From Microgenomates group bacterium (GTDB taxonomy: Bacteria; Patescibacteriota; Microgenomatia; PFEM01; JBNASD01), in the NCBI GenBank assembly GCA_049720225.1, contig JBNASD010000001.1:15162-79161 (forward strand): 64,000 bases of DNA, read 5' to 3'. The notes under the pieces are model-generated. The model saw nothing but the letters and a program-made list of their open reading frames with translations. It searched no databases and was not told the DNA's origin. Positions 35,495 to 55,128 of the stretch are shown here, piece after piece. A program made the position numbers and the translations under genes. The first letter of the stretch is position 1. Each line of letters opens with the position of its first letter.

Positions 35495-36355
35495 TTTTTA
35501 AAGAAGGGTTAAGGTGGGGAAGAGGGGAGGGGTTTCCAATAATATCCTATAATTATTTAATAACCCTATAGTATTATATTTTCACAAAAAATTTTCTTTA
35601 TTTTCACAAAATAGCACTAAAAATTTTTATTTGCCAATAATATAGTTTGATATACTTGACTTTGTGGATAACTTTAGAGGGGAGTTAACTTAAAAATAAA
35701 ATTTAATTTTTTAACAAATTATTCTCTTCCTTTAAATTGAAATAAGAATTAATAAAGATAATAATTTCCCTTTCCCTTTTCTTAGATAGCTCTCTTTAGC
35801 AATGACGCACAATATATCTTTTGCGACATTTTTAAGCAGAGTGAGGAAGAGGGGTTTAAATTTTTAAGTTTTAAAAATTATAAAAATAAAAATTTGAGTT
35901 TTATTTTTAACTAAAACCTTTTAAAAGTTTCCTTAATTCTCTTTAATAAACTATTAAGGTTTTTTCATTTTTTAGATTTCTTATAACTTCTCCCGGCTAA
36001 ATTAAAAAAATTAAAAACGAAAAATGGAGCTGTTGTCTTAAAACAGATGGTTCTTTTAAAATACCAAAATATATCCTTTTTTTAAAAAAGCCGTTTTTGG
36101 GGCTTTAGCGGGTTGGTTGAATTTGCAATAAAAACAAAAAAATATCGCTTCGGAGAAAAAGTTTCTTTTTTAATCAAGATTTTCTCTTTTTCCTTCAATC
36201 TAGATCAAAATAATTCCTGCTTAAGAGAAGTGCTTTATATTAATAGTTTTAAATAAAAATAAGCCCTAAAAAAATAAATAATCCCTAAAAAATAATCAAT
36301 CGCATATAAGAGATATAAAACAAAAATTTTTTAAAATTTATGATGTCGCACAATA

Positions 36356-42529: not shown

Positions 42530-42572
42530 CCCATTGACATTTTATCATAAATTAATGAATAATTAATTTAAA

Positions 42573-44279
42573 ATGACACCTGCCCGGAATATTGCCGATA
42601 TTTTAGCGGAAAAGGGAGTATTAACTAAAAAAGATCTTGAAAAAGTTAAACTTGAGGAGATAAATACGGGAAAGCCGGTTAAAGAAATTCTTAAAGAATT
42701 TCATCTTGCAGATGAAGAACAAATTGCTCAAGCAGAAGGAGAATTGTGGAAAGTTCCTTATGTGAATTTAGCGGAAACTCCCTTTTCTCCTCAAGCTTTA
42801 AATTTTTTATCTCAAGCGGTAGCGGAAGAATATAATGTAATTCCTTTTCAATTTGACTCTTCAACTAATGAACTTGCTGTCGCTTTAGAAAATCCCCTAG
42901 ATTTAGATTTAATTAAATTTTTAGAAAAAAAGACAGGAACAAAAATAAAACCTCACATTGCTTCCCCTACCCAAATTAAAGAAGCGATTGAATCTCATTA
43001 TGGTCAAAGCTTGGTAGCAGAAATTAAGGCCACTTTGGGAGAAACTAAAGTTACTCCTCAACAACCTCAACCTACTTATATTCCACGACCGGGAGAGGTT
43101 TTGAGGGAAGAAAAAATTGCCCGAGTAGTTAATATTATTTTAGAATTTGCGGTAAAATCGAGAGCGTCTGATATTCATATTGAACCTCAAGAAGAAAATA
43201 CTCGGGTAAGATATCGAATTGACGGCATTCTTCATGAGAAATTGGTTTTACCTAAATATCTTCATGATGCGGTTGTTTCCCGGGTAAAAATTCTTTCGGG
43301 AATGAGAATTGATGAAAAAAGGGTACCTCAGGATGGTCGATTTAGCTTTAAAGCAGAGGATCAGGAAATTGATTTGCGGGTTTCTTCTTTGCCGACTGTC
43401 CATGGAGAGAAGATTGTGATGAGGTTACTTAAAAAAACTGGTCAGGTTCCTGATTTGCCAGAATTAGGCTTAAGAGGAAGGGCCTTAAAAGATTTACAAG
43501 AAGCAATTTTAAGACCTCACGGAATTATTATTGTTTGCGGACCTACCGGTTCAGGAAAGACGACTACCCTATATTCAGTTCTTTCGCGAATTAATACTCC
43601 CCGCGTAAATATTATTACTTTGGAAGATCCCGTGGAATACGAAATTCCCGGCGTTAATCAAGTTCAAGTTAATCCGGCGGCGGGTTTAACTTTTGCTTCG
43701 GGAATGCGCTCTTTTTTGCGGCAAGATCCTAACATTATTATGGTAGGAGAAATTAGAGATCGAGAAACTACGGAATTAGCGGTTCAGGCTTCTTTAACTG
43801 GACATTTGGTTTTTTCTACTCTTCACACTAACAATGCTGCTCAGGCAATTCCTCGCCTTTTGGATTTAGGAGCAGAACCATTTTTACTTGCTTCCTCAGT
43901 TACCTGTTTAGTGGCTCAGCGAATTTGTCGAAGAATTTGTCCAGATTGTAAGGAAGAATATTCTCCTCCACCAGAAGTAATTGAAGATATTAAAAAAGTC
44001 TTAGGAAAACTTTTTCCTCCTCAAAAAGAAACAAAACTTTATCGGGGTAAAAAATGCGCTACCTGTAACAACACAGGTTATTTAGGAAGGATAGGAATTT
44101 TTGAAGTATTGCCAATTAGTGAAAAAATTGCTAGACTGATTTTAGAAAGAGCGTCTGCCCGAGAGATTGAAAAACAGGCAAGAGAAGAAGGGATGGTTAC
44201 TATGAAGCAAGATGGATATTTAAAAGTTTTAGAGGGGATTACTACTATTGAAGAAGTTTTAAGGGTAGCGCAAGAGTAA
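42573..44279 (+). CDS. pilB: type IV pilus assembly ATPase PilB/GspE
   Basis: N-terminal GSPII_E_N domain, Walker A GPTGSGKTTT, tetracysteine CRRICPDCK...CATCNNTG. Confidence 0.9.
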   Translation: MTPARNIADILAEKGVLTKKDLEKVKLEEINTGKPVKEILKEFHLADEEQIAQAEGELWKVPYVNLAETPFSPQALNFLSQAVAEEYNVIPFQFDSSTNELAVALENPLDLDLIKFLEKKTGTKIKPHIASPTQIKEAIESHYGQSLVAEIKATLGETKVTPQQPQPTYIPRPGEVLREEKIARVVNIILEFAVKSRASDIHIEPQEENTRVRYRIDGILHEKLVLPKYLHDAVVSRVKILSGMRIDEKRVPQDGRFSFKAEDQEIDLRVSSLPTVHGEKIVMRLLKKTGQVPDLPELGLRGRALKDLQEAILRPHGIIIVCGPTGSGKTTTLYSVLSRINTPRVNIITLEDPVEYEIPGVNQVQVNPAAGLTFASGMRSFLRQDPNIIMVGEIRDRETTELAVQASLTGHLVFSTLHTNNAAQAIPRLLDLGAEPFLLASSVTCLVAQRICRRICPDCKEEYSPPPEVIEDIKKVLGKLFPPQKETKLYRGKKCATCNNTGYLGRIGIFEVLPISEKIARLILERASAREIEKQAREEGMVTMKQDGYLKVLEGITTIEEVLRVAQE

Positions 44280-44281
44280 AA

Positions 44282-45337
44282 ATGAAAATAGAAGAATTAC
44301 TAGAAATAACCATCAATAAAAAAGCGTCTGATCTTCATTTAATTGTTGGCTTGCCTCCTACTGTAAGGGTAAATGGAGAATTATTTTCTATACCGGGAAA
44401 GGAGACTTTAACGGAAAGTTTAGTAAAGGATCTGATTTTTAGCATTTTAAGCGAAGAACAAAAAGAAATTCTTTTAGTTAATAAAGAACTGGACTTTTCT
44501 TTTGATTATCAAGGGAGAGGAAGGTTTAGAGTTAACGCTTATCATCAAAAAGGAACATTAGCGGCGGCGTTTCGTCTTTTGCCCCCCACCATTCCTTCCA
44601 TTAAAGAAGTAAATCTTCCGGATATTTGTTATTCTTTTGCCGAACTAAAACAAGGATTTATTTTAGTTACTGGACCCACGGGTCATGGAAAATCAACTAC
44701 TCTTGCAGCCACCATTGAGGAAATTAATAAAAATAGACCGGTGCATATAGTCACTATTGAGGATCCTATCGAATATGTTTTTTGTCCCAAGAAAGCAATT
44801 ATTTCTCAGAGAGAGATTCGGACTGATACCCATTCCTGGCAAATTGCCTTACGGTCTTGTTTGCGTGAGGATCCAGACGTGGTAATGATTGGCGAAATGA
44901 GAGATTACGAAACGATTGCCTCTGCCTTAACTATTGCCGAAACGGGTCATTTGGTTTTTGCTACCCTTCACACTAATTCTGCGGCTCAAACGGTGGATAG
45001 AATTATTGATGTTTTTCCTGAAGAACAACAGACTCAAGTAAGGATGCAACTTTCTAATACTTTAGAAGCAATTCTTTCTCAAAGACTCTTGCCTTGTCTA
45101 GATGGAGGAAGAATTCCTGCTTTTGAAATCTTAACCGCTACACCAGCGGTAAGGACCGCTATTCGTGAAGGAAAAACCCATCTTATTGATAATATTATTC
45201 AAACTTCAGTAGAGTTAGGAATGAGAACTTTAGAAATGGATCTAGCTTGGTTAGTTAAACAGGGAAAAATTGATTTAGAAACCGCAAAAGCGTATGCCTT
45301 AAAGCCAGAAGAACTAATACGGTTAGTTAGGAAATAA
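44282..45337 (+). CDS. pilT: twitching-motility retraction ATPase PilT
   Basis: 351 aa. GPTGHGKSTT; the TIEDPIEY, AIRE-like region. Confidence 0.9.
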   Translation: MKIEELLEITINKKASDLHLIVGLPPTVRVNGELFSIPGKETLTESLVKDLIFSILSEEQKEILLVNKELDFSFDYQGRGRFRVNAYHQKGTLAAAFRLLPPTIPSIKEVNLPDICYSFAELKQGFILVTGPTGHGKSTTLAATIEEINKNRPVHIVTIEDPIEYVFCPKKAIISQREIRTDTHSWQIALRSCLREDPDVVMIGEMRDYETIASALTIAETGHLVFATLHTNSAAQTVDRIIDVFPEEQQTQVRMQLSNTLEAILSQRLLPCLDGGRIPAFEILTATPAVRTAIREGKTHLIDNIIQTSVELGMRTLEMDLAWLVKQGKIDLETAKAYALKPEELIRLVRK

Positions 45338-45339
45338 AA

Positions 45340-46545
45340 ATGGAAAAATTTGATTACAAAGCTAAAGATGAAAGTGGAAAAACAATTCAGGGAGTAGTTG
45401 AAGCGTCGTCAGAGAAAGAAGCAGTTAAAATTCTCCGCGCTCGTAAGCTTCTGGTAATTTCTTTAAAACAAAAAAAAATAAATGCTATCGAAGAACTTCG
45501 TGAAAGAGCTTTTTCAAGAATCAGTTTAAACGATAAAGTTAATTTTACGCGTCAATTTTCAACAATGATTACTGCCGGTCTTCATATTACCGAGGCGTTG
45601 GAAATTTTAGAACTTCAATCCCCTCCAGGATTAAGAAGAGTGGTTAGAGAAGTATTAAAAGATATTGAAGGAGGAAAGAGTTTGTCCCAAGCAATAGAAA
45701 AACATCCAGAAGCATTTGATACTCTTTATGTGTCTTTGGTAAAAGCAGGAGAAACCGCTGGAGTTTTGGAAAAGGTTTTGTCTCGCTTAGCAGATAATAT
45801 GGAGAAACAAAAAGAATTTCAGGGGAAGGTAAAGGGAGCAATGATATATCCAGCGATTGTAATTTTTGGAATGATTATAGTGGCGGGAATTATGGTAATT
45901 TTTGTTTTACCAAAAATGATGACTATTTATGAAGAATTTCAGGCACAACTTCCTACTTCGACAAAAATCCTTTTAGCCATTTCTAAATTCGCTACTAAAT
46001 TTTGGTGGTTAATGTTAGCTTTTGTTTTTGGCGGAATAATTGGATTAAGAATTCTTTTTCGAAGCCCAGAATTCAAAAAAGAATTTGATCGATTTTTGTT
46101 TCGAATACCAATTATTGGTAATTTAAGACAGAAGTCGGTTTTAACAGAATTTACCCGTACTTTAGGATTATTAACTAACGCAGGAATTTTAATTGTTGAT
46201 GCTTTACATGTTGCTTCCCGATCTTTGGGAAGTAAATTTTACCAAGAGGCAGTTTTAAAAGCAGCAGATCAAGTGGAAAGAGGAGTACCTTTAGCAACTG
46301 CCTTAGCAGAAATAGGTATTTTCCCCCCCATTTTGCCGCAAATGATTTCCGTAGGAGAAGAAACAGGAAAAATCGATGAGGTTTTGTTTAAAATTTCTCA
46401 TTATTTTGAGCAAGAAACCGAAGCGGCAATTAAAGCCTTGACAAGCGCCATGGAGCCAATTATTATGATTATATTAGGAATTGGAGTGGCATTCTTAATG
46501 ATTTCAGTAATAATGCCAATTTATAACTTAACCTCGCAATTCTAA
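45340..46545 (+). CDS. pilC: type IV pilus platform protein PilC/GspF
   Basis: 401 aa, two GspF repeats, 3 TM. Confidence 0.9.
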   Translation: MEKFDYKAKDESGKTIQGVVEASSEKEAVKILRARKLLVISLKQKKINAIEELRERAFSRISLNDKVNFTRQFSTMITAGLHITEALEILELQSPPGLRRVVREVLKDIEGGKSLSQAIEKHPEAFDTLYVSLVKAGETAGVLEKVLSRLADNMEKQKEFQGKVKGAMIYPAIVIFGMIIVAGIMVIFVLPKMMTIYEEFQAQLPTSTKILLAISKFATKFWWLMLAFVFGGIIGLRILFRSPEFKKEFDRFLFRIPIIGNLRQKSVLTEFTRTLGLLTNAGILIVDALHVASRSLGSKFYQEAVLKAADQVERGVPLATALAEIGIFPPILPQMISVGEETGKIDEVLFKISHYFEQETEAAIKALTSAMEPIIMIILGIGVAFLMISVIMPIYNLTSQF

Positions 46546-46627
46546 ATTAGGCCTTGACAAAGAAGATTTAAAAATTATAAAAAGATTTATAAGAAAAAAT
46601 GATAAAGAAAGGAGGTGAGAAAAAAGA

Positions 46628-47188
46628 ATGAAAAAAGTAAAAGGTTTTACCATGATTGAGTTGTTGATTGTAATTGCGGTTTTAGGAATTTTAGCAGTAG
46701 CTGTTTTAGCAGCTATTAATCCTATAGAACAAATAAATCGAAGTAGAGATACTGGGAGTCGTTCTGATGCGGAACAACTTATAGGGGCTATTGACCGCTT
46801 CTACACCGCTAATGGTTATTATCCTTGGGTTGATAGTGCCGATAACCCTGATTATGATCAACCATGGAGAAAAGTAGATATGACTTGGGTAGATAATTTA
46901 GGAAATTCTGTACTTACCAAACTTTCTGATCCTACTCAAGGAACAGCAGAAATTAAAGAATCGTTTGTGGATAGAATTACTGATTCAGAATATAATTCAC
47001 TTTATATTTATAACAACGGTCAACAGGGAGGAAGTACTTATGTCTGTTTTATGCCAAAATCTGCTAACTTTTTGAATGAGGCCAACAGGAGAGCGGGACA
47101 AAATTGTGCTGGATTGCCACCCGATTTACAAACAGCAGGGTGTGACAATATTTGCCCGGGCGGAAAGTGCTTTTCATGTTTGCCATAA
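46628..47188 (+). CDS. prepilin-type pilin (186 aa)
   Basis: Class III signal KGFTMIELLIVIAVLGILA (G/F cleavage, Glu+5). Six Cys at the C-terminus. Confidence 0.8.
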   Translation: MKKVKGFTMIELLIVIAVLGILAVAVLAAINPIEQINRSRDTGSRSDAEQLIGAIDRFYTANGYYPWVDSADNPDYDQPWRKVDMTWVDNLGNSVLTKLSDPTQGTAEIKESFVDRITDSEYNSLYIYNNGQQGGSTYVCFMPKSANFLNEANRRAGQNCAGLPPDLQTAGCDNICPGGKCFSCLP

Positions 47189-47247: not shown

Positions 47248-48030
47248 ATGACTTTCTCTTTACCATTAGTATTGTGTGTCTTGGGGCTTTGTGTAGGAAG
47301 TTTTGTTAATTGCTTAGTTTGGCGGCTACATCAGGGATTATCGCCAATTGGGGGGAGGTCGATTTGTCCGTCTTGTAAAAAACAGATTCGTTGGTATGAT
47401 AATATTCCGTTGGTTTCTTTTGTGTTGCTTAAAGGGCGGTGTCGAGATTGTCATTCGCCTATCCCCTATCATTATCCGTTAGTGGAATTATCTGGTGGAA
47501 TTTTAACTTTAATAGTTTTTTATTCTCAAGGAATTTTTCTGAAGGAGAATTTTTTGTTTTTAATTTTCAATTTATTAATTACTTACCTTCTTTTGGCAAT
47601 TTTTCTTTCTGACTTGCTTTATATGACTATCCCTGACCAAATAGTTTTCTCAGGAATAATAATTTCTTTAGTTTTTTTATTTTTAACATATCCCCTTTCA
47701 GAAATTTTTAAGTTTTTAATTTCTGGTTTTGTTTTTGCTGGATTTTTTTATTTATTGCGTTTATTTACCAAAGGCAAAGGAATGGGTTTAGGGGATGTAA
47801 AATTAGCTGGATTAATGGGTTTAGTTTTAGGTTGGCCAAAAATTTTGGTTGCTTTTTATTTTGCCTTCTTGACAGGAGCAATCGTTGGTGTCATACTGAT
47901 TTTATTAAGAAAAAAAAGGTGGGGTGAACATATTCCATTTGGGCCATTTCTAAGTGGAGCAACTTTTATTAATTTAATTTGGGGAAATGAAATATTAAAA
48001 TGGGCAGAAAAAATTTTGGGCTTACTTTAA
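47248..48030 (+). CDS. pilD: prepilin peptidase PilD (A24) with N-terminal Zn-binding CxxC...CxxC
   Basis: CPSCKKQ...CRDCHSPI; multi-TM; the DxxxGxGD region (GMGLGDVKLAG). Confidence 0.85.
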   Translation: MTFSLPLVLCVLGLCVGSFVNCLVWRLHQGLSPIGGRSICPSCKKQIRWYDNIPLVSFVLLKGRCRDCHSPIPYHYPLVELSGGILTLIVFYSQGIFLKENFLFLIFNLLITYLLLAIFLSDLLYMTIPDQIVFSGIIISLVFLFLTYPLSEIFKFLISGFVFAGFFYLLRLFTKGKGMGLGDVKLAGLMGLVLGWPKILVAFYFAFLTGAIVGVILILLRKKRWGEHIPFGPFLSGATFINLIWGNEILKWAEKILGLL

Positions 48031-48797
48031 TAGAACTATTAATAGTACTCGCTACGTTAGCAATTTTAATTACGTTATCTTTTTTTACTTTTAAAACCCA
48101 AATGGCCAAAGGTAGAGATGGTCGACGAAAGGCGGATTTAAATAAACTTCAGAAAGCATTAGAAGATTATATGAATGACCATGGCTGTTATCCTAATCCT
48201 GAGGAAATTACTACCAACAATATTATTTGTGGCGGATCGTTCTCTCCTTATTTAACTCAACTCCCTTGTGATCCGATTAATAATTCTTACTATAATTTTT
48301 TTTATTCCTATGATCAGAGAGAAGATTGTAAAACGTGGTATAAAATTTACGCAAAGTTTGAATACGACAAAGATTTAATTATCGAAAAAGTTGGTTGTAA
48401 AAATGGATGTGGACCGGTTAAAAATTATAATTATTGGGTTTCTAGTCCTAATATGACTGAAGTTAATCAGATTGCCGAAGCAGAAGATTGGTGGCCAAAA
48501 GAAATAGCCGTTAAAAATACGTTAGTAACACCGTCTTCTTCTATTTCGCCTTCCTTAACTCCATCTTTTACAGCAACGCCTACTTTATTTTCGACTCCCT
48601 CTCTTATTCTTACTCCTCCTTTAATTTGTGATTCTGGCTATTACTCTTATTGCCAAAACGGAGATTGTATATATTATGGAACAATGCCCCCCCTTCACTG
48701 TAATATTTATTATTGCTGTATAGGAGAAAATAATTGTAATTGTGCTCAGGGGGCGTGTAGAAATGAATTTGGTCAACCGATAAATAATTGCTATTAA
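48000..48797 (+). CDS. prepilin-type pilin with S/T/P-rich linker and Cys-rich C-terminal module (candidate tip adhesin)
   Basis: GLTLIELLIVLATLAIL signal; a pilin core YKIYAKFEYDKD; a TLVTPSSSISPSLTPSFTATPTLFSTPSLILTPP linker; then ICDSGYYSYCQNGDCIYYGT...CCIGENNCNCAQGACRNEF...NNCY. It overlaps the pilD 3' end by 31 nt. Confidence 0.7.
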   Translation: MGRKNFGLTLIELLIVLATLAILITLSFFTFKTQMAKGRDGRRKADLNKLQKALEDYMNDHGCYPNPEEITTNNIICGGSFSPYLTQLPCDPINNSYYNFFYSYDQREDCKTWYKIYAKFEYDKDLIIEKVGCKNGCGPVKNYNYWVSSPNMTEVNQIAEAEDWWPKEIAVKNTLVTPSSSISPSLTPSFTATPTLFSTPSLILTPPLICDSGYYSYCQNGDCIYYGTMPPLHCNIYYCCIGENNCNCAQGACRNEFGQPINNCY

Positions 48798-48812: not shown

Positions 48813-49259
48813 ATGGAAAATAATCAAGATAAAGGCTTTACTTTAATTGAACTTTTGGTGGTAATTACAATTTTAGGAATTTTAGCGGTGATTGGTTTGG
48901 GAAGTTTTTCTTCTTCACAAATGAAAGGACGAGATGCTCAAAGAAAAAACGATCTTTCCCAAATTCAAAAAGCCTTAGAAATGTATTACAATGATAATGG
49001 ATCTTATCCTTTAACCAATCAAATGCAAACACTTTTAAACACCGGTGGGTCATGGACAGCCGCCGGAGGAAGTACTATTTATATGAAAACTGTACCTAAA
49101 GGACCAAAAGGAGATGTTTATTGTTATGAAAGTGATGGAAGTTATTATAGACTTTATGCTAAACTGGAAAATGTGAGAGATCCAAAAATTATTACACCGC
49201 AAAGTAGTATATGCGCTAGTTATAATTACGGAGTTTCCAGTAGTAACATAACGCCATGA
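48813..49259 (+). CDS. prepilin-type pilin paralog A
   Basis: [19 protein letters not shown]; shared core [27 protein letters not shown]; Cys pair. Confidence 0.8.
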
Positions 49260-49332
49260 ATAAAAAATTTTTAACCAAAAAAGGTTTTACTTTAATTGAA
49301 CTTTTAGTGGTGATTTCTATTATTGGGATTTT
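49256..49332 (+). repeat. 77-nt direct repeat (pilin 5' end), second copy at 49756..49832, 76/77 identical
   Basis: Direct comparison: ATGAATAAAAAATTTTTAAC[C/A]AAAAAAGGTTTTACTTTAATTGAACTTTTAGTGGTGATTTCTATTATTGGGATTTT. Confidence 0.9.
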
Positions 49333-49735
49333 AACCGCTTTAATTATGGTTAATTTTAATGCTGCTCGAGAAAGAGCAAGAGATGCTCAAAGAAAATCGG
49401 ATTTGGATCAAATTAAAAAGGCATTGAGGATGTATTATAATGATTTCGGAGTTTACCCTCAGAATGATTCAAGTAATAAAATTAGAGGATGTAATCCGTT
49501 AGTGACTTTTAATTGGGGAACTCCATTTACCTGTGGCGGGATGAGTTATATGAAAATTCTTCCTCAAGATCCTAGTGAGGGAAGAACTTATAAATATCTT
49601 CAAACATCTTCGGGTAATGATTTTTGCTTATGGACTACATTAGAAAACAAATCAGATGGTGATATTAATAAATCTAAAAACCGCTGTTTAAATTGTTCTG
49701 TAGGAACATATGATTACGTGGTATGTGCAGATTAA
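49256..49735 (+). CDS. prepilin-type pilin paralog B
   Basis: [26 protein letters not shown]. The ATG overlaps the upstream TGA (ATGA). Core [27 protein letters not shown]. Confidence 0.8.
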
Positions 49736-49755
49736 TTTTAAAAAAAATTTAAAAG

Positions 49756-50193
49756 ATGAATAAAAAATTTTTAACAAAAAAAGGTTTTACTTTAATTGAA
49801 CTTTTAGTGGTGATTTCTATTATTGGGATTTTGGCTTCATTAGCTTTAGCGAGTTACAGCAGTGCTCAAAAACAAGCCCGTGATGCCCAAAGAAAAAGTG
49901 ATTTAAATCAATATAGAATTGCTTTAGAAAATTATGCGGTAGCTAATAATGGCCTTTATCCAATTTTGACTTATCCTAATCCGATAGGAAATATTTGCCC
50001 CTCCCCTCTTAGCGGTAAATTTATTAGTAGTTGTATTGATGATCCTTTGTCAGATAGAAACTATTATTACGGCTCAAACGGGACAATATATATTCTTTAT
50101 GCTAATTTAGAAAAAGGAGGTTATTGGTATATTTGTTCTAATGGAAAATCAGGAGAGGTTTCTTCCTCTCCAAATTTAAATCTTTGCCAATGA
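49756..50193 (+). CDS. prepilin-type pilin paralog C
   Basis: The first 77 nt are identical to paralog B except for 1 nt. Core [19 protein letters not shown]. Confidence 0.8.
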   Translation: MNKKFLTKKGFTLIELLVVISIIGILASLALASYSSAQKQARDAQRKSDLNQYRIALENYAVANNGLYPILTYPNPIGNICPSPLSGKFISSCIDDPLSDRNYYYGSNGTIYILYANLEKGGYWYICSNGKSGEVSSSPNLNLCQ

Positions 50194-50606
50194 AAAAAAA
50201 AGGTTTTACTTTAATTGAACTTTTAGTTTCGCTATCGATTATTGCTATTTTAATAGGGTTAGCATTGGTTTCTTATCAAGGTGCTCAAAGATCTTCTCGG
50301 GATGGGAGAAGAAAAGCAGATTTAGAGCAAATTCGTAGCGCTTTGGAAATGTGTCGAACTGATACCGGAAGTTATCCTTCGGGAACCTTAGTTTCCGGTA
50401 ATAATATAACTTGCGGATCGGTGACTTATCTTACTATTCCTTCTGACCCTCTTTCTGACCGTCAATATGTCTATACTAATATAGATAGAACTTCCTATAC
50501 CCTCTGTGCTGCTTTAGAAAATGGAGCAGGAACAGTTACTGGATGTGGTTCGTGTGCTAAACCCAATAGTTCTGTTGTTTGTAATTATAAAGTGACTAAT
50601 CCTTAA
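50190..50606 (+). CDS. prepilin-type pilin paralog D
   Basis: [21 protein letters not shown]. The ATG overlaps the upstream TGA (ATGA). Core RDGRRKADLEQIRSALEM. I place the start at this ATG; the listed ORF begins at 50184 with a TTG. Confidence 0.8.
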   Translation: MKKKGFTLIELLVSLSIIAILIGLALVSYQGAQRSSRDGRRKADLEQIRSALEMCRTDTGSYPSGTLVSGNNITCGSVTYLTIPSDPLSDRQYVYTNIDRTSYTLCAALENGAGTVTGCGSCAKPNSSVVCNYKVTNP

Positions 50607-50610
50607 ATGA

Positions 50611-51111
50611 ATGAAAAAAAATCTTTTTTTAAATTTTGGGTTTACTTTAATTGAACTTCTTGTTGTTATTTCTCTTATCGGAATTCTTTTTGGGTTTGGA
50701 GTGGCTCAGTATGTTCAATTTAATCGTCGCCAGGTAGTTGAACAAACCGCTTTAGATTTAAAAAATAATCTTCGTTTAGCGCAAACCCAAGCTTTAGGAG
50801 GAAATAAACCAGTAGGTTGTTCTTTTTTACTTGGATATAAAGTAGTTTTTTTTCAAGGAAGCGTTGAAAATAATACTCCCGATGGTTATCTTATTAAAGC
50901 AATTTGTTCAGAAGGAGAAATAGGAGAAAAAAGATTTACTTTTCCTTTGGTGGTAAGATTTTCTCCCCTCCCCTCCCCTCCTTCGGTAGTTTTTAAAGTT
51001 TTGGGACATGGAACCGATTTAGAAAATGAATTGGAAATTAAATTAAAAGGGTTTAATAACGATTCTTATATTAAAACGGTTATTATTACTTCATCAGGAG
51101 AAATTAGATAA
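50611..51111 (+). CDS. minor pilin (GspH/FimT-like pseudopilin)
   Basis: [18 protein letters not shown]; 166 aa. Confidence 0.65.
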   Translation: MKKNLFLNFGFTLIELLVVISLIGILFGFGVAQYVQFNRRQVVEQTALDLKNNLRLAQTQALGGNKPVGCSFLLGYKVVFFQGSVENNTPDGYLIKAICSEGEIGEKRFTFPLVVRFSPLPSPPSVVFKVLGHGTDLENELEIKLKGFNNDSYIKTVIITSSGEIR

Positions 51112-51489
51112 ATGAAGGATAAAAAGGGACAAGCATTGTTTGAAGTAGTAATTGCTATTGGGGTAATTTTGATTTTGGTGGTTGCTTTAATTATTACTGC
51201 TACTTATTCTTTAAGGAATGCGGAATTCTCTCGAAGTCAAATGCTAGCAACGAAATATGCGCAGGAAGCAATAGAAAAGATTCGTTTGTTTAGAGATAAT
51301 AATCCTTGGAATACATTTATTCTTCAGTGTAACTCTTTTGACTTAGGAATGAATTTACCTTCAAATTTTTCTTTAACAAGGCAATGTTTTTGTCTTTCTG
51401 ATATTTGTGAGGTTAAGATTGTTATTAATTGGCAAGACAGTAAAGGAAATCATAAATCAGAATTAACCACTAAAATTACGAAAAAATGA
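51112..51489 (+). CDS. minor pseudopilin (GspI/PilV-like)
   Basis: KGQALFEVVIAIGV, i.e. G/Q with Glu+5. 125 aa. Confidence 0.55.
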   Translation: MKDKKGQALFEVVIAIGVILILVVALIITATYSLRNAEFSRSQMLATKYAQEAIEKIRLFRDNNPWNTFILQCNSFDLGMNLPSNFSLTRQCFCLSDICEVKIVINWQDSKGNHKSELTTKITKK

Positions 51490-51995
51490 AAAAAAACGGC
51501 TTTACTTTATTAGAAATGATGATTGTGATTACTATTTTAGCCTTAATTGCGGTTGTGGGAAGTGGTTCTTTTTTCTCTATTTTACGAGGATCAACTAAGA
51601 CTAAAAATCTTTCTTTAGTAAAACAAAATGGTGATTACGCCTTATCAGTAATGGAAAGAATGATTAGAAATGCTCGGAGTTTAAAAGCTCCAACAACTAG
51701 CGGGCCGACCGATTCAATTTTAATTGTTAATCCCGACGGTGGGGAAACTCTTTTTAAATGTGATTCAACTACTGATCCACCAACTATCTCTTCAGGAAGT
51801 GCTTCTTTAATTAGCAATGAAGTAAAAGTCAGTTCTGATTGTAATACCTTTTTTAATGTGGTATTGGGAAGAAAAGAATTAGAATCAACCCGAATAGATA
51901 TTTCTTTTACTTTAGTCCCCAATAAAGAAATAGAGCGGCCTGAAGAAAAAGCAGAAATTAACTTTAAAACTTCAGTGACAATGAGAAATTATTGA
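51486..51995 (+). CDS. minor pilin
   Basis: KNGFTLLEMMIVITILALIA; 169 aa. Confidence 0.7.
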   Translation: MKKNGFTLLEMMIVITILALIAVVGSGSFFSILRGSTKTKNLSLVKQNGDYALSVMERMIRNARSLKAPTTSGPTDSILIVNPDGGETLFKCDSTTDPPTISSGSASLISNEVKVSSDCNTFFNVVLGRKELESTRIDISFTLVPNKEIERPEEKAEINFKTSVTMRNY

Positions 51996-52033: not shown

Positions 52034-52861
52034 ATGAAAAATAGAGGGCAAAGTTTAATAATTATCCTTTTAATTGCCGCCGTTGGTTTAACGATTGGTT
52101 TAGCGGTAATTTCTCGTTCTGTAACCGATATAAATATTTCCCAACAAGAGGAGGAGTCAGCTCGTGTTTTCTCCGTTGCTGAGGCAGGAATAGAGGAAGC
52201 GATTAGAGCTGGCGATGTTCCTTCTGGAGGGATTACTATCGGAGAGATAACAGCGACAGTAGAGAAACAATCATTAGGAGGAGGTCAAGAATTTGTTTTT
52301 CCTGGTGAATATGAAGCGGGTGATATTCAAACTCTTTGGTTAATTGGCCATGATGAACAAGAGAATTTAAACGAAAATATAAGGTATAATGGTTCTAGTC
52401 TTATTTTTTATTGGGGTAAAGAAGGACAAAGTGCCGACCAAAATACCACCCCTGCTTTAGAAGTGACTTTAATTTATAAAGATGGAAATACCTTCAAAAT
52501 TAAAAGAGGGGTTTATGATCCTAATTCTTCGCGAAGAGCAAGCAATCATTTTGATGCGCCCGATACTGGTACACCTCCTTATGTGGTTGATGGAAAAAAA
52601 TTTCAATTTAAAAAGGAAAACTTTGGACTGGTAACAGGAACTATTCCTTATTTAGTAAGGTTTCGTTTGATTTATAATAATGAACCACAAATAATAGGTG
52701 TTAAGGGAACCACCAATCTTCCTCAACAAGGAATTTGTTTTATTTCTACCGCTACCTCTCCCAATGGAATTACTCGTCGAGTAAAGCAATGTAATCTTTA
52801 TAAGTCACCTCCAGGAATTTTTGATTATGTTTTATATTCTGAAGAAAATTTAGCAAAATAA
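52034..52861 (+). CDS. large minor pilin lacking Glu+5 (PilX/GspK-like)
   Basis: NRGQSLIIILLIAAVGLTIGLAV signal-like N-terminus with no Glu at +5. 275 aa. Confidence 0.5.
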   Translation: MKNRGQSLIIILLIAAVGLTIGLAVISRSVTDINISQQEEESARVFSVAEAGIEEAIRAGDVPSGGITIGEITATVEKQSLGGGQEFVFPGEYEAGDIQTLWLIGHDEQENLNENIRYNGSSLIFYWGKEGQSADQNTTPALEVTLIYKDGNTFKIKRGVYDPNSSRRASNHFDAPDTGTPPYVVDGKKFQFKKENFGLVTGTIPYLVRFRLIYNNEPQIIGVKGTTNLPQQGICFISTATSPNGITRRVKQCNLYKSPPGIFDYVLYSEENLAK

Positions 52862-52870
52862 CCTGCCCAT

Positions 52871-53884
52871 ATGGAAATTTTTGGTTTAGATATTGGTTCC
52901 CATACCATTAAACTTGTCCAACTAACTAAAAAACAAGATAAATATGAGCTTATTGCTTTTCATTCTGCTGAAACTCCTCCTCGGGGATTAAATTCTGATG
53001 CAGAAAGTGATTTAAATAATTTAGCAGAAATCATTAAAAAAATTCATCAAGAAGCAAAAGTAAAAACCAAAAATGTAGTTAGCGCTCTTTCCCAAGATCA
53101 GGTTTATACTCGATTGATTAATCTTCCTCCTCTTTCGGAAAGCGAATTAGAATCTGCCTTAAAATGGGAGGCAGAACAGTATGTCCCCCTTCCATTAGAA
53201 GAAGTAATTTTGTCTCATCAGGTAGTAGGAAAGAAGATTGAAGAAGGAAAGGAAAAAATTGAAGTAATTCTTGCGGCTGCTCCCACTAGATTGGTAGAAA
53301 AATTGATTAAAGTTCTCAAAACCGCCGGATTAACTCCTGTAAGTTTAGAAATGGAGATTGCTGCTGCCGCTCGAAGTGTTGTTTATCCTGAAATTAAAAG
53401 AGCAATGTTGATTGATCTAGGAGCAAAAGCTACTGATTTAGCAATTATTGAAGAAGGAAAAATTGCCTTAGTTCATTCTTTACCTACCGGCGGAGAAGCT
53501 TTAACGAGAGCCTTAGAATTTGAATTAGGATTAGAAACTATACAAGCAGAAGCTTACAAAAAGGCTTATGGGTTAGAAAAAGAAAAGCTAGAAGGAAAAA
53601 TTAGCGAAGCGATTACCCCGGTTTTAGAAAAAATTACTAATGAAATAGAAAAAACAATTAATTTTTATCAAAGTCAACAAAAAACAATTGATCAAATTAT
53701 TTTAATAGGAGGAACCGCTAATTTGCCAGAAATAAGTAGTTTTATGGCTAAAAAAATTGGTTTAGAAGTTCAAGTAGGTAATCCTTTTGCCCGAATAATT
53801 AATAGTAATCTAGCCGCTAAAATTTCCTCTGAAATGTTTCCCTTATATGCAGTGGCGATTGGTTTAGCAATGAAAGAAATTTAA
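52871..53884 (+). CDS. pilM: type IV pilus assembly protein PilM (actin-like ATPase fold)
   Basis: MEIFGLDIGSHTIKLVQL; 337 aa. Confidence 0.85.
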   Translation: MEIFGLDIGSHTIKLVQLTKKQDKYELIAFHSAETPPRGLNSDAESDLNNLAEIIKKIHQEAKVKTKNVVSALSQDQVYTRLINLPPLSESELESALKWEAEQYVPLPLEEVILSHQVVGKKIEEGKEKIEVILAAAPTRLVEKLIKVLKTAGLTPVSLEMEIAAAARSVVYPEIKRAMLIDLGAKATDLAIIEEGKIALVHSLPTGGEALTRALEFELGLETIQAEAYKKAYGLEKEKLEGKISEAITPVLEKITNEIEKTINFYQSQQKTIDQIILIGGTANLPEISSFMAKKIGLEVQVGNPFARIINSNLAAKISSEMFPLYAVAIGLAMKEI

Positions 53885-53894
53885 CTTTAAAAAG

Positions 53895-54440
53895 ATGGAA
53901 AACATTGATTTTCTTCAGGAATTTAAAAAAAAAGAAAAAATAAAGGAAAAATACTCTCCCTTTATTAAAAAAGGATTTTTGTTTTTTGCTTTTCTTTATT
54001 TATTAACTGTTTTTACAGTTTTCTTTTTCTTTCTTTATTATAACCAAGAAAGCAAAAAAGTTTCTTTCTTAATAGAAGAGAAAAAGAATAGAATTAAACA
54101 ATTAGAAAAAAGGGAATCACTTCAAGTTTTAATTAAACAAAGAATCTCTTTTTTGAGCAAAATAATTAATTCCCGGAAAATAGATTTTGTAAATAAAGTT
54201 GCCTATTTAGCTTCTTTAGAAGAAAAAAATAATATTATTTTTAAAAAAATAGAATTTAAAGAGAATGGAGTGGTTTTAGTAAGTGGTACTACGTCGGACG
54301 TAAAAATTTTTAGAAATTTTTTAAAAAATTTAGAAAATGACTCCTATTTTGATCAAATTGATGTTGACTCTATAAAACGCGGAAAAGATGGAAGTTATGA
54401 CTTTAGTCTTTCGCTTGGAAAAAATGAAGAAAAAAAATAG
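53895..54440 (+). CDS. PilN-like bitopic membrane protein
   Basis: Short cytoplasmic N-terminus, one TM, a coiled-coil periplasmic part. Placed after pilM. Confidence 0.55.
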   Translation: MENIDFLQEFKKKEKIKEKYSPFIKKGFLFFAFLYLLTVFTVFFFFLYYNQESKKVSFLIEEKKNRIKQLEKRESLQVLIKQRISFLSKIINSRKIDFVNKVAYLASLEEKNNIIFKKIEFKENGVVLVSGTTSDVKIFRNFLKNLENDSYFDQIDVDSIKRGKDGSYDFSLSLGKNEEKK

Positions 54441-55128
54441 TCCTAACAATATTCAAGAAATAATTAAAAAATACAGCTTTCTTTTAATCGTCTTTTTGAT
54501 GGTTTTTTCTTTTTTATTTCTAATAAAACCTAAAATAACTCAAATATTAGAAATCAGGAAAAAAATAGAAAATGATAAAAAAACTTTGAAATTTTTGACA
54601 GAAAAAACTTTTCTTTTAGAAAGCTTAAATGAGGCGGATTTAATAAGTAGGTCAGAAAAGATTTTAAAGGTTTTACCAGAAGAAATTAATTTACCTTTAG
54701 TTTTAGGTAATATAAGAGCGATTGCTAATAATGAAGGAGTTAATATTAGCAGAATTAATGTTAATTTAACTTCCGATAAAAAAGAGGAATTAAAGGTAAT
54801 AGGTTTTGATTTAACCATTCAAGGAAATAAAGAAGGAATAAAGAACTTTTTGAAAGAAATAGAAGAAAGCGCCCCCTTAATGGATATTAAATCGTTGAGA
54901 ATAGAAGTAGTTGATAAAAACGAGGAGGTAAATTTAAAATTAGACACTTATTATTTAACACTCCCTAAAACGTTAGGAAAAATTGATGCGCCGGTGGTTC
55001 TTTTAACAGAACAGGAAGAAAAACTTTATCAAGATCTTTCTCGTTTTAGCCAAAAATTCTTTATGGGGGAAGGAGGTTTTGAAATTACCTCCGACCAAAT
55101 AGGAAAAGAAAATCCCTTTTCTTTTTAA
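54388..55128 (+). CDS. PilO-like bitopic membrane protein
   Basis: One TM, coiled coil, C-terminal ferredoxin-like region. Assigned mainly on position. Confidence 0.5.
   Translation: MEVMTLVFRLEKMKKKNSPNNIQEIIKKYSFLLIVFLMVFSFLFLIKPKITQILEIRKKIENDKKTLKFLTEKTFLLESLNEADLISRSEKILKVLPEEINLPLVLGNIRAIANNEGVNISRINVNLTSDKKEELKVIGFDLTIQGNKEGIKNFLKEIEESAPLMDIKSLRIEVVDKNEEVNLKLDTYYLTLPKTLGKIDAPVVLLTEQEEKLYQDLSRFSQKFFMGEGGFEITSDQIGKENPFSF

What the first reader, a model, noticed from the sequence alone, without database searches (positions are those of the whole stretch)
48813..50606. Tandem array of four paralogous major-pilin genes with recombination-prone identical 5' ends
Four consecutive 140-160-aa pilins share the RD(A/G)QRK(S/N/A)DL.QI..AL core and a (Y/L)(Y/W)(A/T).LEN C-terminal motif with Cys pairs, but their variable middles diverge strongly. 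Paralogs B and C share a 77-nt stretch (49256..49332 and 49756..49832) that is 76/77 identical. Two junctions are ATGA overlaps. This architecture (conserved 5' cassette plus variable body) is what antigenic or phase variation by gene conversion looks like. Alternatively it allows a mosaic pilus fibre built from several subunits.
Basis: seen in the sequence. Interest (0 to 1): 0.5.

Follow-up and report, generated by a model that had tools for sequence, protein, structure and literature searches.

The report
Conserved multi-pilin array, not variation cassette
Four neighbouring pilus-subunit genes in an uncultured Microgenomates bacterium are old, individually conserved members of an ordinary type IV pilus operon, and their shared 5' end is a small recombination patch in a part of the protein that is cut off or buried, so it cannot change the pilus surface.

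Summary
Four complete tandem prepilin genes lie at 48813-50606. There are two ATGA overlaps, and B and C share a 76/77-nt 5' stretch that is far beyond chance. The array sits inside a full type IV pilus operon: pilB-pilT-pilC-pilin P0-pilD-Z-A-B-C-D-four minor pilins-pilMNO.

The antigenic or phase variation reading is not supported. All copies are full-length genes with a start codon, leader and constant region, so there are no silent cassettes. No G4 motif or 3' recombination repeats lie nearby. The same Z-A-B-C-D order recurs in eight other genomes, with clean one-to-one orthology: orthologs are 45-73% identical and paralogs 35-44%. Rough dN/dS is 0.2-0.3 on the "variable" bodies. Near-identical strains of relatives from different samples show no shuffling.

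The B/C identity is a short gene-conversion tract covering the leader plus the first 16 mature residues. That part is cleaved off or buried in the fibre core. Similar homogenisation of the B and C 5' ends appears in two of seven relatives.

"Major pilin" is unproven. The only strong ribosome-binding site among the pilin genes belongs to the separate pilin P0 (46628-47188).

Verdict: a fixed multi-subunit pilin set, a new member of a known kind, of modest interest.

The parts
42573..44279 (+). pilB-like assembly ATPase
   Evidence: Pfam T2SSE 439.7 bits plus MshEN. A sigma70-like site (11/12) lies at 42534-42563, but the scan as a whole is not above shuffles.
44282..45337 (+). pilT-like retraction ATPase
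   Evidence: Pfam T2SSE 150 bits, 351 aa. It is 70-82% identical to the second ATPase in related loci.
45340..46545 (+). pilC platform protein
   Evidence: Pfam T2SSF, two stretches, 208.6 bits.
46628..47188 (+). Pilin P0, a separate, non-GspG-like prepilin and the best candidate for the main fibre subunit
   Evidence: N_methyl 33.7 bits. It follows an 82-nt spacer. AAGGAGGTGA lies 8 nt upstream of the ATG, and only 7 of 64 ORFs in the window have a strong SD. The SD is present in all six relatives that include P0, as GGGGGTGA in two of them. A sigma70-like site (11/12) lies at 46438-46466. Orthologs are 47-61% identical in the loci and up to 71% in the protein database.
47248..48030 (+). pilD prepilin peptidase
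   Evidence: Pfam A24_N_bact plus Peptidase_A24. It overlaps Z by 31 nt.
48000..48797 (+).
   Evidence: N_methyl 24.1 bits and T2SSG 20.5 bits, just under the cut-off. It has the RDGRRKADL core and forms an orthologous clade. The L015 ortholog lacks the C-terminal module.
48813..49259 (+). Pilin A (148 aa)
   Evidence: N_methyl 38 bits and T2SSG 35.7 bits. Orthologs are 50-69% identical in eight genomes. There is no SD.
49256..49735 (+). Pilin B (159 aa)
49256..49332 (+). 5' tract of B that is 76/77 identical to 49756-49832 in C: leader [10 protein letters not shown] plus the first 16 mature residues
   Evidence: The sequence is C-type: 50/51 matches to L006 C' against 42/51 to L006 B'.
49756..50193 (+). 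Pilin C (145 aa)
   Evidence: N_methyl 33.3 bits; T2SSG only 14.1 bits, below the cut-off. Orthologs are 50-65% identical. A strong SD, AAGGAGGTGA, lies upstream in 6 of 7 relatives but not here.
49756..49832 (+). 5' tract of C, the partner of 49256-49332
50190..50606 (+). Pilin D (138 aa, ATG at 50190)
   Evidence: N_methyl 36 bits and T2SSG 21.4 bits. A sub-threshold ComP_DUS hit (19.3 bits) covers the whole domain. Orthologs are 45-69% identical.
50611..51111 (+). E, a GspH/FimU-like minor pilin
   Evidence: N_methyl. The best NCBIfam hit is GspH at 44.7 bits, below the cut-off.
51112..51489 (+). F, a GspI/ComGE-like minor pilin
   Evidence: N-terminus GQALFEVV. Weak ComGE hit. Conserved in this position in relatives.
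51486..51995 (+). G, a GspJ-like minor pilin
   Evidence: N_methyl 31.2 bits. Weak GspJ hit.
52034..52861 (+). H, a large terminal pilin-like protein without Glu5, in the GspK/PilX position
   Evidence: N-terminus MKNRGQSLIIILLIAAVGL. No Pfam or NCBIfam hit. Orthologs are 42-58% identical. Assigning it to the K position is an inference from gene order and the missing E5.
52871..55128 (+). pilM, pilN and pilO alignment proteins
   Evidence: PilM_2 183.8 bits, PilN 23.9 bits, PilO 28.8 bits.

Best explanation
The four genes, together with a fifth paralog Z just upstream, are a fixed and vertically inherited set of GspG-like type IV pilins. They lie inside one complete, retractile (PilT-containing) type IV pilus operon of a Microgenomates (CPR/Patescibacteria) bacterium.

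Proposed mechanism:
- Each gene encodes a complete prepilin with a leader ending in Gly, Phe+1, Glu+5 and a hydrophobic alpha1N.
- The genes are probably co-transcribed and partly translationally coupled (ATGA overlaps).
- The products would be processed by the PilD encoded in the same operon.
- They would be polymerised by the single PilB/PilC/PilMNO machine, primed by the four H-I-J-K-like minor pilins E-H.

My preferred reading, which is inferred and not shown: the separate pilin P0 (46628-47188) builds the bulk of the fibre. P0 is the only pilin gene here with a strong ribosome-binding site and its own spacer. Z and A-D would then be non-redundant accessory subunits, comparable to the 'non-core minor' pilins. 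They would be incorporated at lower abundance and give the fibre distinct binding properties.

The near-identical 5' ends of B and C are a by-product of tandem paralogy. They reflect a recent short gene-conversion patch, apparently with a C-type sequence copied into B. The patch spans the leader peptide and the first 16 mature residues. That part is cleaved off or buried in the fibre core, so the event does not change the exposed surface and is not a variation mechanism.
For: Shown:
- Pilin signatures and the pilin fold, and the complete machinery in the operon.
- Tight gene spacing, with no terminator-like site on the + strand inside the array.
- The same order pilB-T-C-P0-pilD-Z-A-B-C-D-E-F-G-H-pilM in eight other distinct genomes whose PilB is 68-80% identical.
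- An NJ tree of the paralogs from five genomes gives five clean orthologous clades. Paralog identity is the same within and between genomes: 53.6 vs 53.1% in the N part and 30.8 vs 30.0% in the globular part.
- Rough dN/dS is 0.04-0.17 for the N part and 0.21-0.31 for the globular part.
- Strain pairs of relatives from different samples are 99.3-100% identical across the array, with no rearrangement.
- The B/C tract statistics and the C-type donor.
- B/C leader homogenisation also occurs in L006 (93%) and L016 (100%) but not in five other genomes (40-63%). No other paralog pair shows it.
- SD AAGGAGGTGA precedes P0 here and in all six relatives that include it. A, B, D, E and Z lack a canonical SD almost everywhere.

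From the literature:
- Multi-pilin T4P loci with accessory and minor pilins are documented in cultured Saccharibacteria (PMC11623550).
- A pilin family and the T4P machinery are enriched across CPR (PMC6744442).
Against: - No expression or proteomic data exist for this organism, so the major versus accessory assignment rests only on SD strength and operon position.
- In 6 of 7 relatives, C also carries the strong SD, so C may be a second abundant subunit. That fits a co-major or two-filament model better.
- The A-D position corresponds to gspG in the gspG-H-I-J-K order, which is the major subunit slot.
- Population data for this exact organism could not be obtained. The exact B and C proteins were not found by the contig look-up.
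- dS is near saturation, so dN/dS values are rough.
Confidence: 0.7

Rival explanations
1. Heteropolymeric fibre. A-D, or at least C with some of the others, are co-major subunits that co-polymerise stochastically into one mosaic filament, as PilE1 and PilE2 do in Streptococcus sanguinis.
For: - They are tandem full-length pilins in one operon with translational coupling.
- The array occupies the gspG-like slot ahead of the H-I-J-K-like minor pilins.
- C has a strong SD in 6 of 7 relatives.
- All share near-identical alpha1N residues, so they could pack into one core.
- There is a solved precedent, 8pfb (PMC10628169).
Against: [quoted passage not shown] Here the globular domains are only about 30% identical, with different lengths and Cys patterns. 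That makes equivalent packing less obvious.
- A, B and D lack an SD while P0 has the strongest one.
- No abundance data exist.
Confidence: 0.2
2. Alternative filaments. One machine assembles two or more different homopolymeric pili, for example a P0 fibre and a C or A-D fibre, used for different tasks. Precedents are the wide and narrow pili of Thermus thermophilus (PilA4/PilA5) and the thick and thin pili of strain TM7x.
For: - Two pilin genes, P0 and C, carry the strong SD in most relatives.
- TM7x makes two distinct T4P (PMC11623550).
- Separate cryo-EM structures of the Thermus pilins PilA4 and PilA5 are in the PDB (6xxd, 6xxe).
Against: - TM7x uses two sets of machinery genes. Only one set is visible in this window.
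- In this window C has lost its SD.
- Nothing distinguishes conditional expression: there is no internal terminator, and the promoter scan is not above shuffles.
Confidence: 0.08
3. Programmed antigenic or phase variation. The conserved 5' ends act as recombination handles so that variable bodies are swapped or switched on and off within a population.
For: - There is a real, statistically strong recombination tract between B and C.
- 5' homogenisation recurs in 2 of 7 relatives.
- There is an A9 run at the start of D.
- A small SNP cluster lies in the C' tail between two strains of a relative.
Against: - There are no silent or truncated cassettes; all copies keep their start codon, leader and constant region. 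This is the opposite of pilS.
- The converted segment is cleaved off or buried.
- There is no nucleotide-level homology downstream that could resolve a swap of variable regions.
- No G4 motif lies within 13 kb. No inverted repeats of note were found.
- One-to-one orthology and fixed order hold across all nine genomes.
- Selection is purifying.
- Strain pairs show no shuffling.
- The poly-A run is not conserved in relatives.
Confidence: 0.02

Closest known systems
Type IV pilus locus 1 of Nanosynbacter lyticus TM7x (Saccharibacteria, CPR) (PMC11623550)
   Same: A CPR T4aP-like operon with pilB, pilT, pilC, pilD and pilMNO plus several pilin genes in one locus. Some of its pilins show sequence homology to T2SS pseudopilins. 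There is no secretin. The pilins are poorly conserved outside their lineage.
   Different: - TM7x locus 1 has 5 predicted pilins; this operon has 10, five of them GspG-like paralogs in tandem.
- No clear one-to-one orthology to the Saccharibacteria pilins was found; in L002 only the N-terminal regions match.
- Roles in TM7x were tested genetically. Here nothing is tested.
Streptococcus sanguinis heteropolymeric T4P (PilE1/PilE2; PDB 8pfb; PMC10628169)
   Same: A monoderm-type T4P whose operon carries tandem paralogous full-length pilin genes that are used together rather than alternately. It also contains modular minor pilins with grafted C-terminal domains, as Z does here.
   Different: [quoted passage not shown] A-D are only about 30% identical in their globular parts and have been separately conserved for a long time.
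Non-core minor pilins of Neisseria (PilV, PilX, ComP) and Pseudomonas aeruginosa PilE
   Different: In Neisseria those genes are scattered (established knowledge, not tested here), not in a five-gene tandem array. No sequence-level family membership was found. Low abundance is not shown here.
GspG/PulG/EpsG major pseudopilin of the type II secretion system
   Different: - All score below the GspG equivalog cut-off: 42-67 bits against 88.85.
- The operon has PilT, PilM, PilN and PilO, and no secretin or GspC in the window. It is a pilus, not a T2SS.
Neisseria pilE/pilS pilin antigenic variation (PMC6796969)
   Same: Several pilin-related sequences in one genome, with RecA-type gene conversion between them as the mechanism of sequence exchange.
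   Different: - pilS copies lack the promoter, RBS and 5' constant region, and recombination replaces the 3' variable regions using the cys1/cys2 and Sma/Cla homologies and an upstream G4.
- Here all copies are complete. The only converted tract is the 5' constant part. No 3' homology blocks or G4 are present.

Membership tests
Type IV pilin (class III signal peptide / prepilin) | Short basic leader ending in Gly, then Phe/Met +1, Glu +5 and about 20 hydrophobic residues (N_methyl motif) | tested here: met
   PF07963 scores 31-38 bits for A-D against a cut-off of 21.2. TIGR02532 is above its cut-off. The sequences read ...KG|FTLIELLVV....
Type IV pilin (class III signal peptide / prepilin) | Lollipop fold: a long N-terminal helix packed on an antiparallel beta-sheet | tested here: met
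   [not shown]
Type IV pilin (class III signal peptide / prepilin) | Cognate prepilin peptidase and assembly machinery encoded nearby | tested here: met
   PilD (Peptidase_A24), PilB and PilT (T2SSE), PilC (T2SSF) and PilM/N/O are in the same operon.
Major pilin (the main structural subunit of the fibre) | By far the most abundant pilin in the filament and the highest expression among the pilin genes | not testable with these tools
   The only proxy is SD strength. The strong SD is at P0, not at A-D, in this window. It is at P0 and C in most relatives. No transcriptome or proteome was found.
GspG (T2SS major pseudopilin, TIGR01710 equivalog) | Score at or above the curated equivalog cut-off (88.85 bits) | tested here: not met
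   A 65.2, B 66.8, C 42.5 and D 43.4 bits. The Pfam T2SSG domain is above its cut-off in A, B and D but not in C.
GspG (T2SS major pseudopilin, TIGR01710 equivalog) | T2SS context: secretin GspD, GspC, and no retraction ATPase | tested here: not met
   The operon has PilT and PilMNO. Nothing secretin-like is in the operon or adjacent genes. The rest of the genome was not seen.
Neisseria-type pilE/pilS antigenic variation | One expressed locus plus silent copies lacking promoter, RBS and the 5' constant coding region | tested here: not met
   All five GspG-like genes have an ATG, leader and constant region and are intact ORFs. The definition is from PMC6796969.
Neisseria-type pilE/pilS antigenic variation | Conserved DNA blocks flanking the variable regions (cys1/cys2, Sma/Cla repeat) and an upstream G4-forming sequence | tested here: not met
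   No nucleotide-level repeats were found beyond the 5' end. The only G4 motif in the window is at 35506.
Neisseria-type pilE/pilS antigenic variation | High-frequency sequence variation of the exposed region within populations or between close strains | tested here: inconclusive
   Not testable for this organism, because the exact proteins were absent from the contig look-up. In relatives, strain pairs from different samples are 99.3-100% identical over the array. One cluster of 9 SNPs, giving 3 aa changes, lies in the C' tail.
Heteropolymeric T4P of the S. sanguinis type | Tandem full-length pilin paralogs in the pil operon | tested here: met
Heteropolymeric T4P of the S. sanguinis type | Co-major subunits nearly identical in sequence and present in comparable amounts in one fibre | tested here: not met
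   The sequence part was tested. [quoted passage not shown] Abundance is not testable here.
Invertible-element or slipped-strand phase variation | Inverted repeats flanking a promoter or gene segment with a site-specific recombinase, or a conserved homopolymer or short-repeat tract in the 5' coding region | tested here: not met
   The longest inverted repeat is 42 nt at 71%. The A9 tract at the start of D is one of 5 A/T runs of at least 9 in the window and is absent from orthologs. No search for recombinase genes was made.

The most novel reading that the evidence does not exclude
This Microgenomates clade may build its pilus or pili from an unusually large fixed repertoire of up to six distinct structural pilins: P0, Z, A, B, C and D. 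Each has been conserved for a long time. In addition, recurrent exchange of the 5' end between B and C only, together with gain or loss of the strong ribosome-binding site in front of C, could act as an evolutionary dial that resets the stoichiometry of subunits in the fibre. This would be a slow, lineage-level form of pilus remodelling, not within-population antigenic variation.
Probability: 0.12. Interest if true: 0.5.

Novelty: new member of a known kind. Interest (0 to 1): 0.25.

Why it matters
Type IV pili are thought to be central to how ultrasmall CPR bacteria attach to and live on their hosts. Only Saccharibacteria have been studied experimentally.

This work shows that a Microgenomates clade keeps ten prepilin-like genes in one operon, five of them GspG-like paralogs in a fixed order. 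That gives a defined set of candidates for host-recognition subunits. It also removes a tempting but wrong analogy to gonococcal antigenic variation.

The practical lesson for genome scans is simple. Conserved 5' ends among pilin paralogs are the universal pilin constant region and are not evidence of a cassette system. A recombination tract confined to that region cannot vary the pilus surface.

Tried and rejected
- Exact-sequence look-ups of B and C to find the source population and sister strains found nothing on record. Within-population variation of this organism therefore could not be tested, and I used strain pairs of relatives instead.
- The genome-contig scan with PilC gave only 5 loci. 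The closest one (L001) ends at the start of Z. The useful loci came from look-ups of B homologs.
- The promoter and terminator scan gave 54 promoter-like sites against 43.1 +/- 5.7 in shuffles and no + strand terminator in the array. It is not informative beyond 'probably one operon'.
- A literature search for Microgenomates pilin metaproteomics returned zero papers. The Patescibacteria-methanogen metatranscriptome paper mentions highly expressed pilins but not of this lineage. The 2026 'Pam pilus' preprint concerns a different, donor-strand-exchange pilus.
- dN/dS: dS is 1.4-2.0 and many pairs are saturated, so the values are only rough upper bounds.
- An assembly artefact for the 77-nt identity was considered and judged unlikely. 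The tract is shorter than a read, both genes keep intact frames, and similar but imperfect B/C homogenisation appears in independent assemblies (L006-8, L016). Read-level confirmation is still missing.
- Phase variation through the A9 tract at the start of D was considered and rejected, because Lys-rich leaders in a 34% GC genome give such runs and the orthologs lack it.
- GAST composition (25-37%) did not discriminate among the pilins.
Full report
OBSERVATION

- A, 48813-49259 (148 aa)
- B, 49256-49735 (159 aa)
- C, 49756-50193 (145 aa)
- D, 50190-50606 (138 aa from its ATG)

The A/B and C/D junctions are ATGA overlaps.

B and C share nt 1-77 with one synonymous difference. Identity begins exactly at the ATG and ends after codon 26. 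This is not simply protein constraint. In the identical downstream block [10 protein letters not shown], five of ten codons differ synonymously. In codons 1-26, 23 of 25 identical-aa codons are the same, against 17 of 38 later (Fisher p = 1.3e-4). Simulated independent codon choice for the same 26-aa peptide gives about 14 differences and never 1 or fewer in 200,000 trials.

- Only B and C are near-identical at the 5' end.
- The motifs hold approximately.
- A fifth paralog with the same core lies immediately upstream (Z, 48000-48797).
- 'Major pilin' was assumed, not observed.

WHAT IT IS

All four proteins carry the prepilin N-methylation motif above threshold. They also carry a T2SSG-type domain, above threshold in A, B and D and below it in C. 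All score below the curated GspG equivalog cut-off.

The surroundings form a complete type IV pilus operon:
- pilB, pilT and pilC
- a separate pilin P0 (46628-47188)
- pilD
- Z, A, B, C, D
- four further prepilin-like genes E-H that look like the GspH/I/J/K or FimU-PilVWX priming set
- pilM, pilN and pilO

No other pilin-like ORF is present in the window. Protein B is 100% identical to an NCBI protein from a 'Microgenomates group bacterium' MAG contig of 466,595 bp. The window is 34% GC.

COMPARATIVE EVIDENCE

B has more than 6,400 database homologs, with full-length orthologs at 58-79% identity. I fetched the genomic context of eight of them. They gave eight further distinct genomes, plus near-identical strain copies, whose PilB is 68-80% identical to the window's.

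- All of them show the same order ...pilD-Z-A-B-C-D-E-F-G-H-pilM... as far as each contig reaches.
- Reciprocal BLAST gives clean one-to-one orthology: A 50-69%, B 61-73%, C 50-65% and D 45-69%, against 35-44% between paralogs.
- An NJ tree of the paralogs from five genomes resolves five orthologous clades.
- Paralogs are no more similar within a genome than between genomes: 53.6 vs 53.1% in the N part and 30.8 vs 30.0% in the globular part. There is therefore no general concerted evolution.
- The 'variable middles' are conserved within each orthologous group, with family-specific C-termini such as ...DYVVCAD in B and ...CNYKVTNP in D.
- Rough dN/dS is 0.21-0.31 in the globular parts and 0.04-0.17 in the N parts. 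dS is near saturation, so the true ratios are probably lower.
- More distant CPR lineages have fewer copies in the same slot: two in a Pacebacteria MAG and one or two in a Kerfeldbacteria MAG. The five-gene array is therefore a lineage-specific but old expansion.

POPULATION-LEVEL CHECK

The exact B and C proteins were not found by the contig look-up, so this organism's own population could not be examined.

In relatives, contigs from different samples are nearly identical. L006/L007/L008 are 99.3-99.7% identical, L009/L010 99.8% and L011/L012 100% across the array. There is no rearrangement and no exchange of gene bodies, and more SNPs fall in the flanking recG than in the pilins. The only local feature is a 9-SNP cluster that changes three residues in the C-terminal tail of C'.

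THE B/C 5' TRACT

Anchoring all genes on the Gly codon of the cleavage site gives these within-genome B-C leader identities:
- 87% in the window, 93% in L006 and 100% in L016
- 40-63% in five other genomes
- 37% on average between genomes

No other paralog pair shows this. The homogenised leaders differ between the three genomes: [10 protein letters not shown] here, ...AKSKIQ(K/N)LG in L006 and M(D/N)KKIINKKFKTG in L016. The exchange therefore seems to be recurrent, or continuing, and specific to the adjacent pair B/C.

The window's shared alpha1N sequence matches C' of its closest relative L006 at 50 of 51 nt, but B' at only 42 of 51. This suggests that a C-type sequence was copied into B.

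The key functional point is location. The tract covers the leader, which PilD removes, and the first 16 mature residues. Those residues form the hydrophobic alpha1N that packs in the filament core (PMC10628169). Exchange there cannot alter the exposed surface.

WHY IT IS NOT A VARIATION SYSTEM

In the gonococcal paradigm, the silent pilS copies lack the promoter, ribosome-binding site and 5' constant region. Recombination replaces the semivariable and hypervariable 3' parts, using conserved cys1/cys2 and Sma/Cla blocks and an upstream G4 (PMC6796969).

Here the opposite holds:
- Every copy is complete.
- The only shared DNA is the 5' constant part.
- There are no downstream homology blocks.
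- The only G4 motif in the window is 13 kb away.
- No significant inverted repeats were found.
- The A9 run at the start of D is what a Lys-rich leader gives in an AT-rich genome, and it is not conserved.

Together with fixed order, one-to-one orthology and purifying selection, this puts the variation hypothesis at a few per cent.

HOW IT MOST LIKELY WORKS

Shown:
- The genes are complete prepilins.
- They are tightly packed (gaps of -4 to +20 nt), with no + strand terminator-like site inside the array.
- They sit between pilD and the priming minor pilins.

Inferred: they are co-transcribed, processed by PilD and polymerised by the single PilB/PilC/PilMNO machine, with PilT retraction.

Which subunit is the major one is not shown. 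Shine-Dalgarno sequences are rare in this genome; 7 of 64 ORFs have a strong one. The best one, AAGGAGGTGA, precedes P0, which also has its own 82-nt spacer. This SD is present in all six relatives that include P0. A, B, D, E and Z essentially lack one. C carries the same strong SD in 6 of 7 relatives. It has lost it in this window and in L006, two of the three genomes with homogenised B/C 5' ends.

COMPARISON WITH THE KNOWN

- Multi-pilin T4P loci are already described in CPR bacteria. TM7x locus 1 has the same machinery plus five pilins, some with sequence homology to T2SS pseudopilins (PMC11623550).
- A pilin family and T4P components are among the CPR-enriched protein families (PMC6744442).
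- Tandem co-used pilin paralogs are known from S. sanguinis (PMC10628169).
- Short gene-conversion tracts between tandem paralogs are commonplace.

What is new here is modest: a ten-pilin operon with a five-paralog GspG-like array, conserved in order across a Microgenomates clade, and a recurrent B/C-specific 5' homogenisation.

VERDICT

This is a new member of a known kind, with interest about 0.25.

Noticed in passing
[not shown]
   Followed up: partly
window 46590-47188; relatives L011, L013-L017: Shine-Dalgarno sequences are rare in this genome (7 of 64 ORFs strong). Yet AAGGAGGTGA precedes pilin P0 here and in all six relatives that include it, and precedes C in 6 of 7 relatives. The window and L006 have lost it before C.
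   Followed up: yes
L006 701-720 and 1221-1240 (also L007, L008): A GC-rich palindrome, CTGCCTTGCCGGC(A/C)GGCAGG, lies within the annotated leader regions of both B' and C' in this lineage and nowhere else in the 17 fetched loci. It could be a small repeated hairpin element carried along by the B/C 5' exchange. It also makes the called start codons there doubtful.
   Followed up: partly
L014 9724-10788, L015 9856-11772, L016 9861-10925: In three relatives, a polyprenyl synthetase gene (plus lytB in L015) on the opposite strand is inserted between minor pilin G and H (in L015 the contig ends before H), splitting the pilus operon. The window has no such insertion.
   Followed up: no
window 50193-50201, 50614, 51489: A9 and A8 runs lie right after the start codons of D, E and G, in their Lys-rich leaders. 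They could be slippage-prone, but they are not conserved in orthologs, and there are 5 A/T runs of at least 9 in the window.
   Followed up: partly
L006 1626-1692 vs L007: A cluster of 9 SNPs in 67 nt lies at the C'/D' junction between two otherwise 99.3% identical strains. It changes three residues in the C-terminal tail of C'. No donor sequence was found elsewhere in the locus.
   Followed up: partly
window 35506-35532: This is the only canonical G-quadruplex motif in the 64-kb, 34% GC window (GGGTTAAGGTGGGGAAGAGGGGAGGGG). It is unrelated to the pilin array.
   Followed up: no
window 48813-49259 and 50190-50606: A and D give sub-threshold hits to the ComP_DUS domain (20.9 and 19.3 bits, cut-off 27.3), which marks the Neisseria DNA-binding minor pilin. 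In D the hit spans the whole domain. This is a weak hint of a DNA-binding accessory pilin.
   Followed up: no
window 53895-55128: The called pilN and pilO ORFs overlap by 53 nt, so the pilO start may be misplaced. Related loci show similar overlaps of 23-50 nt, though some do not overlap.
   Followed up: no
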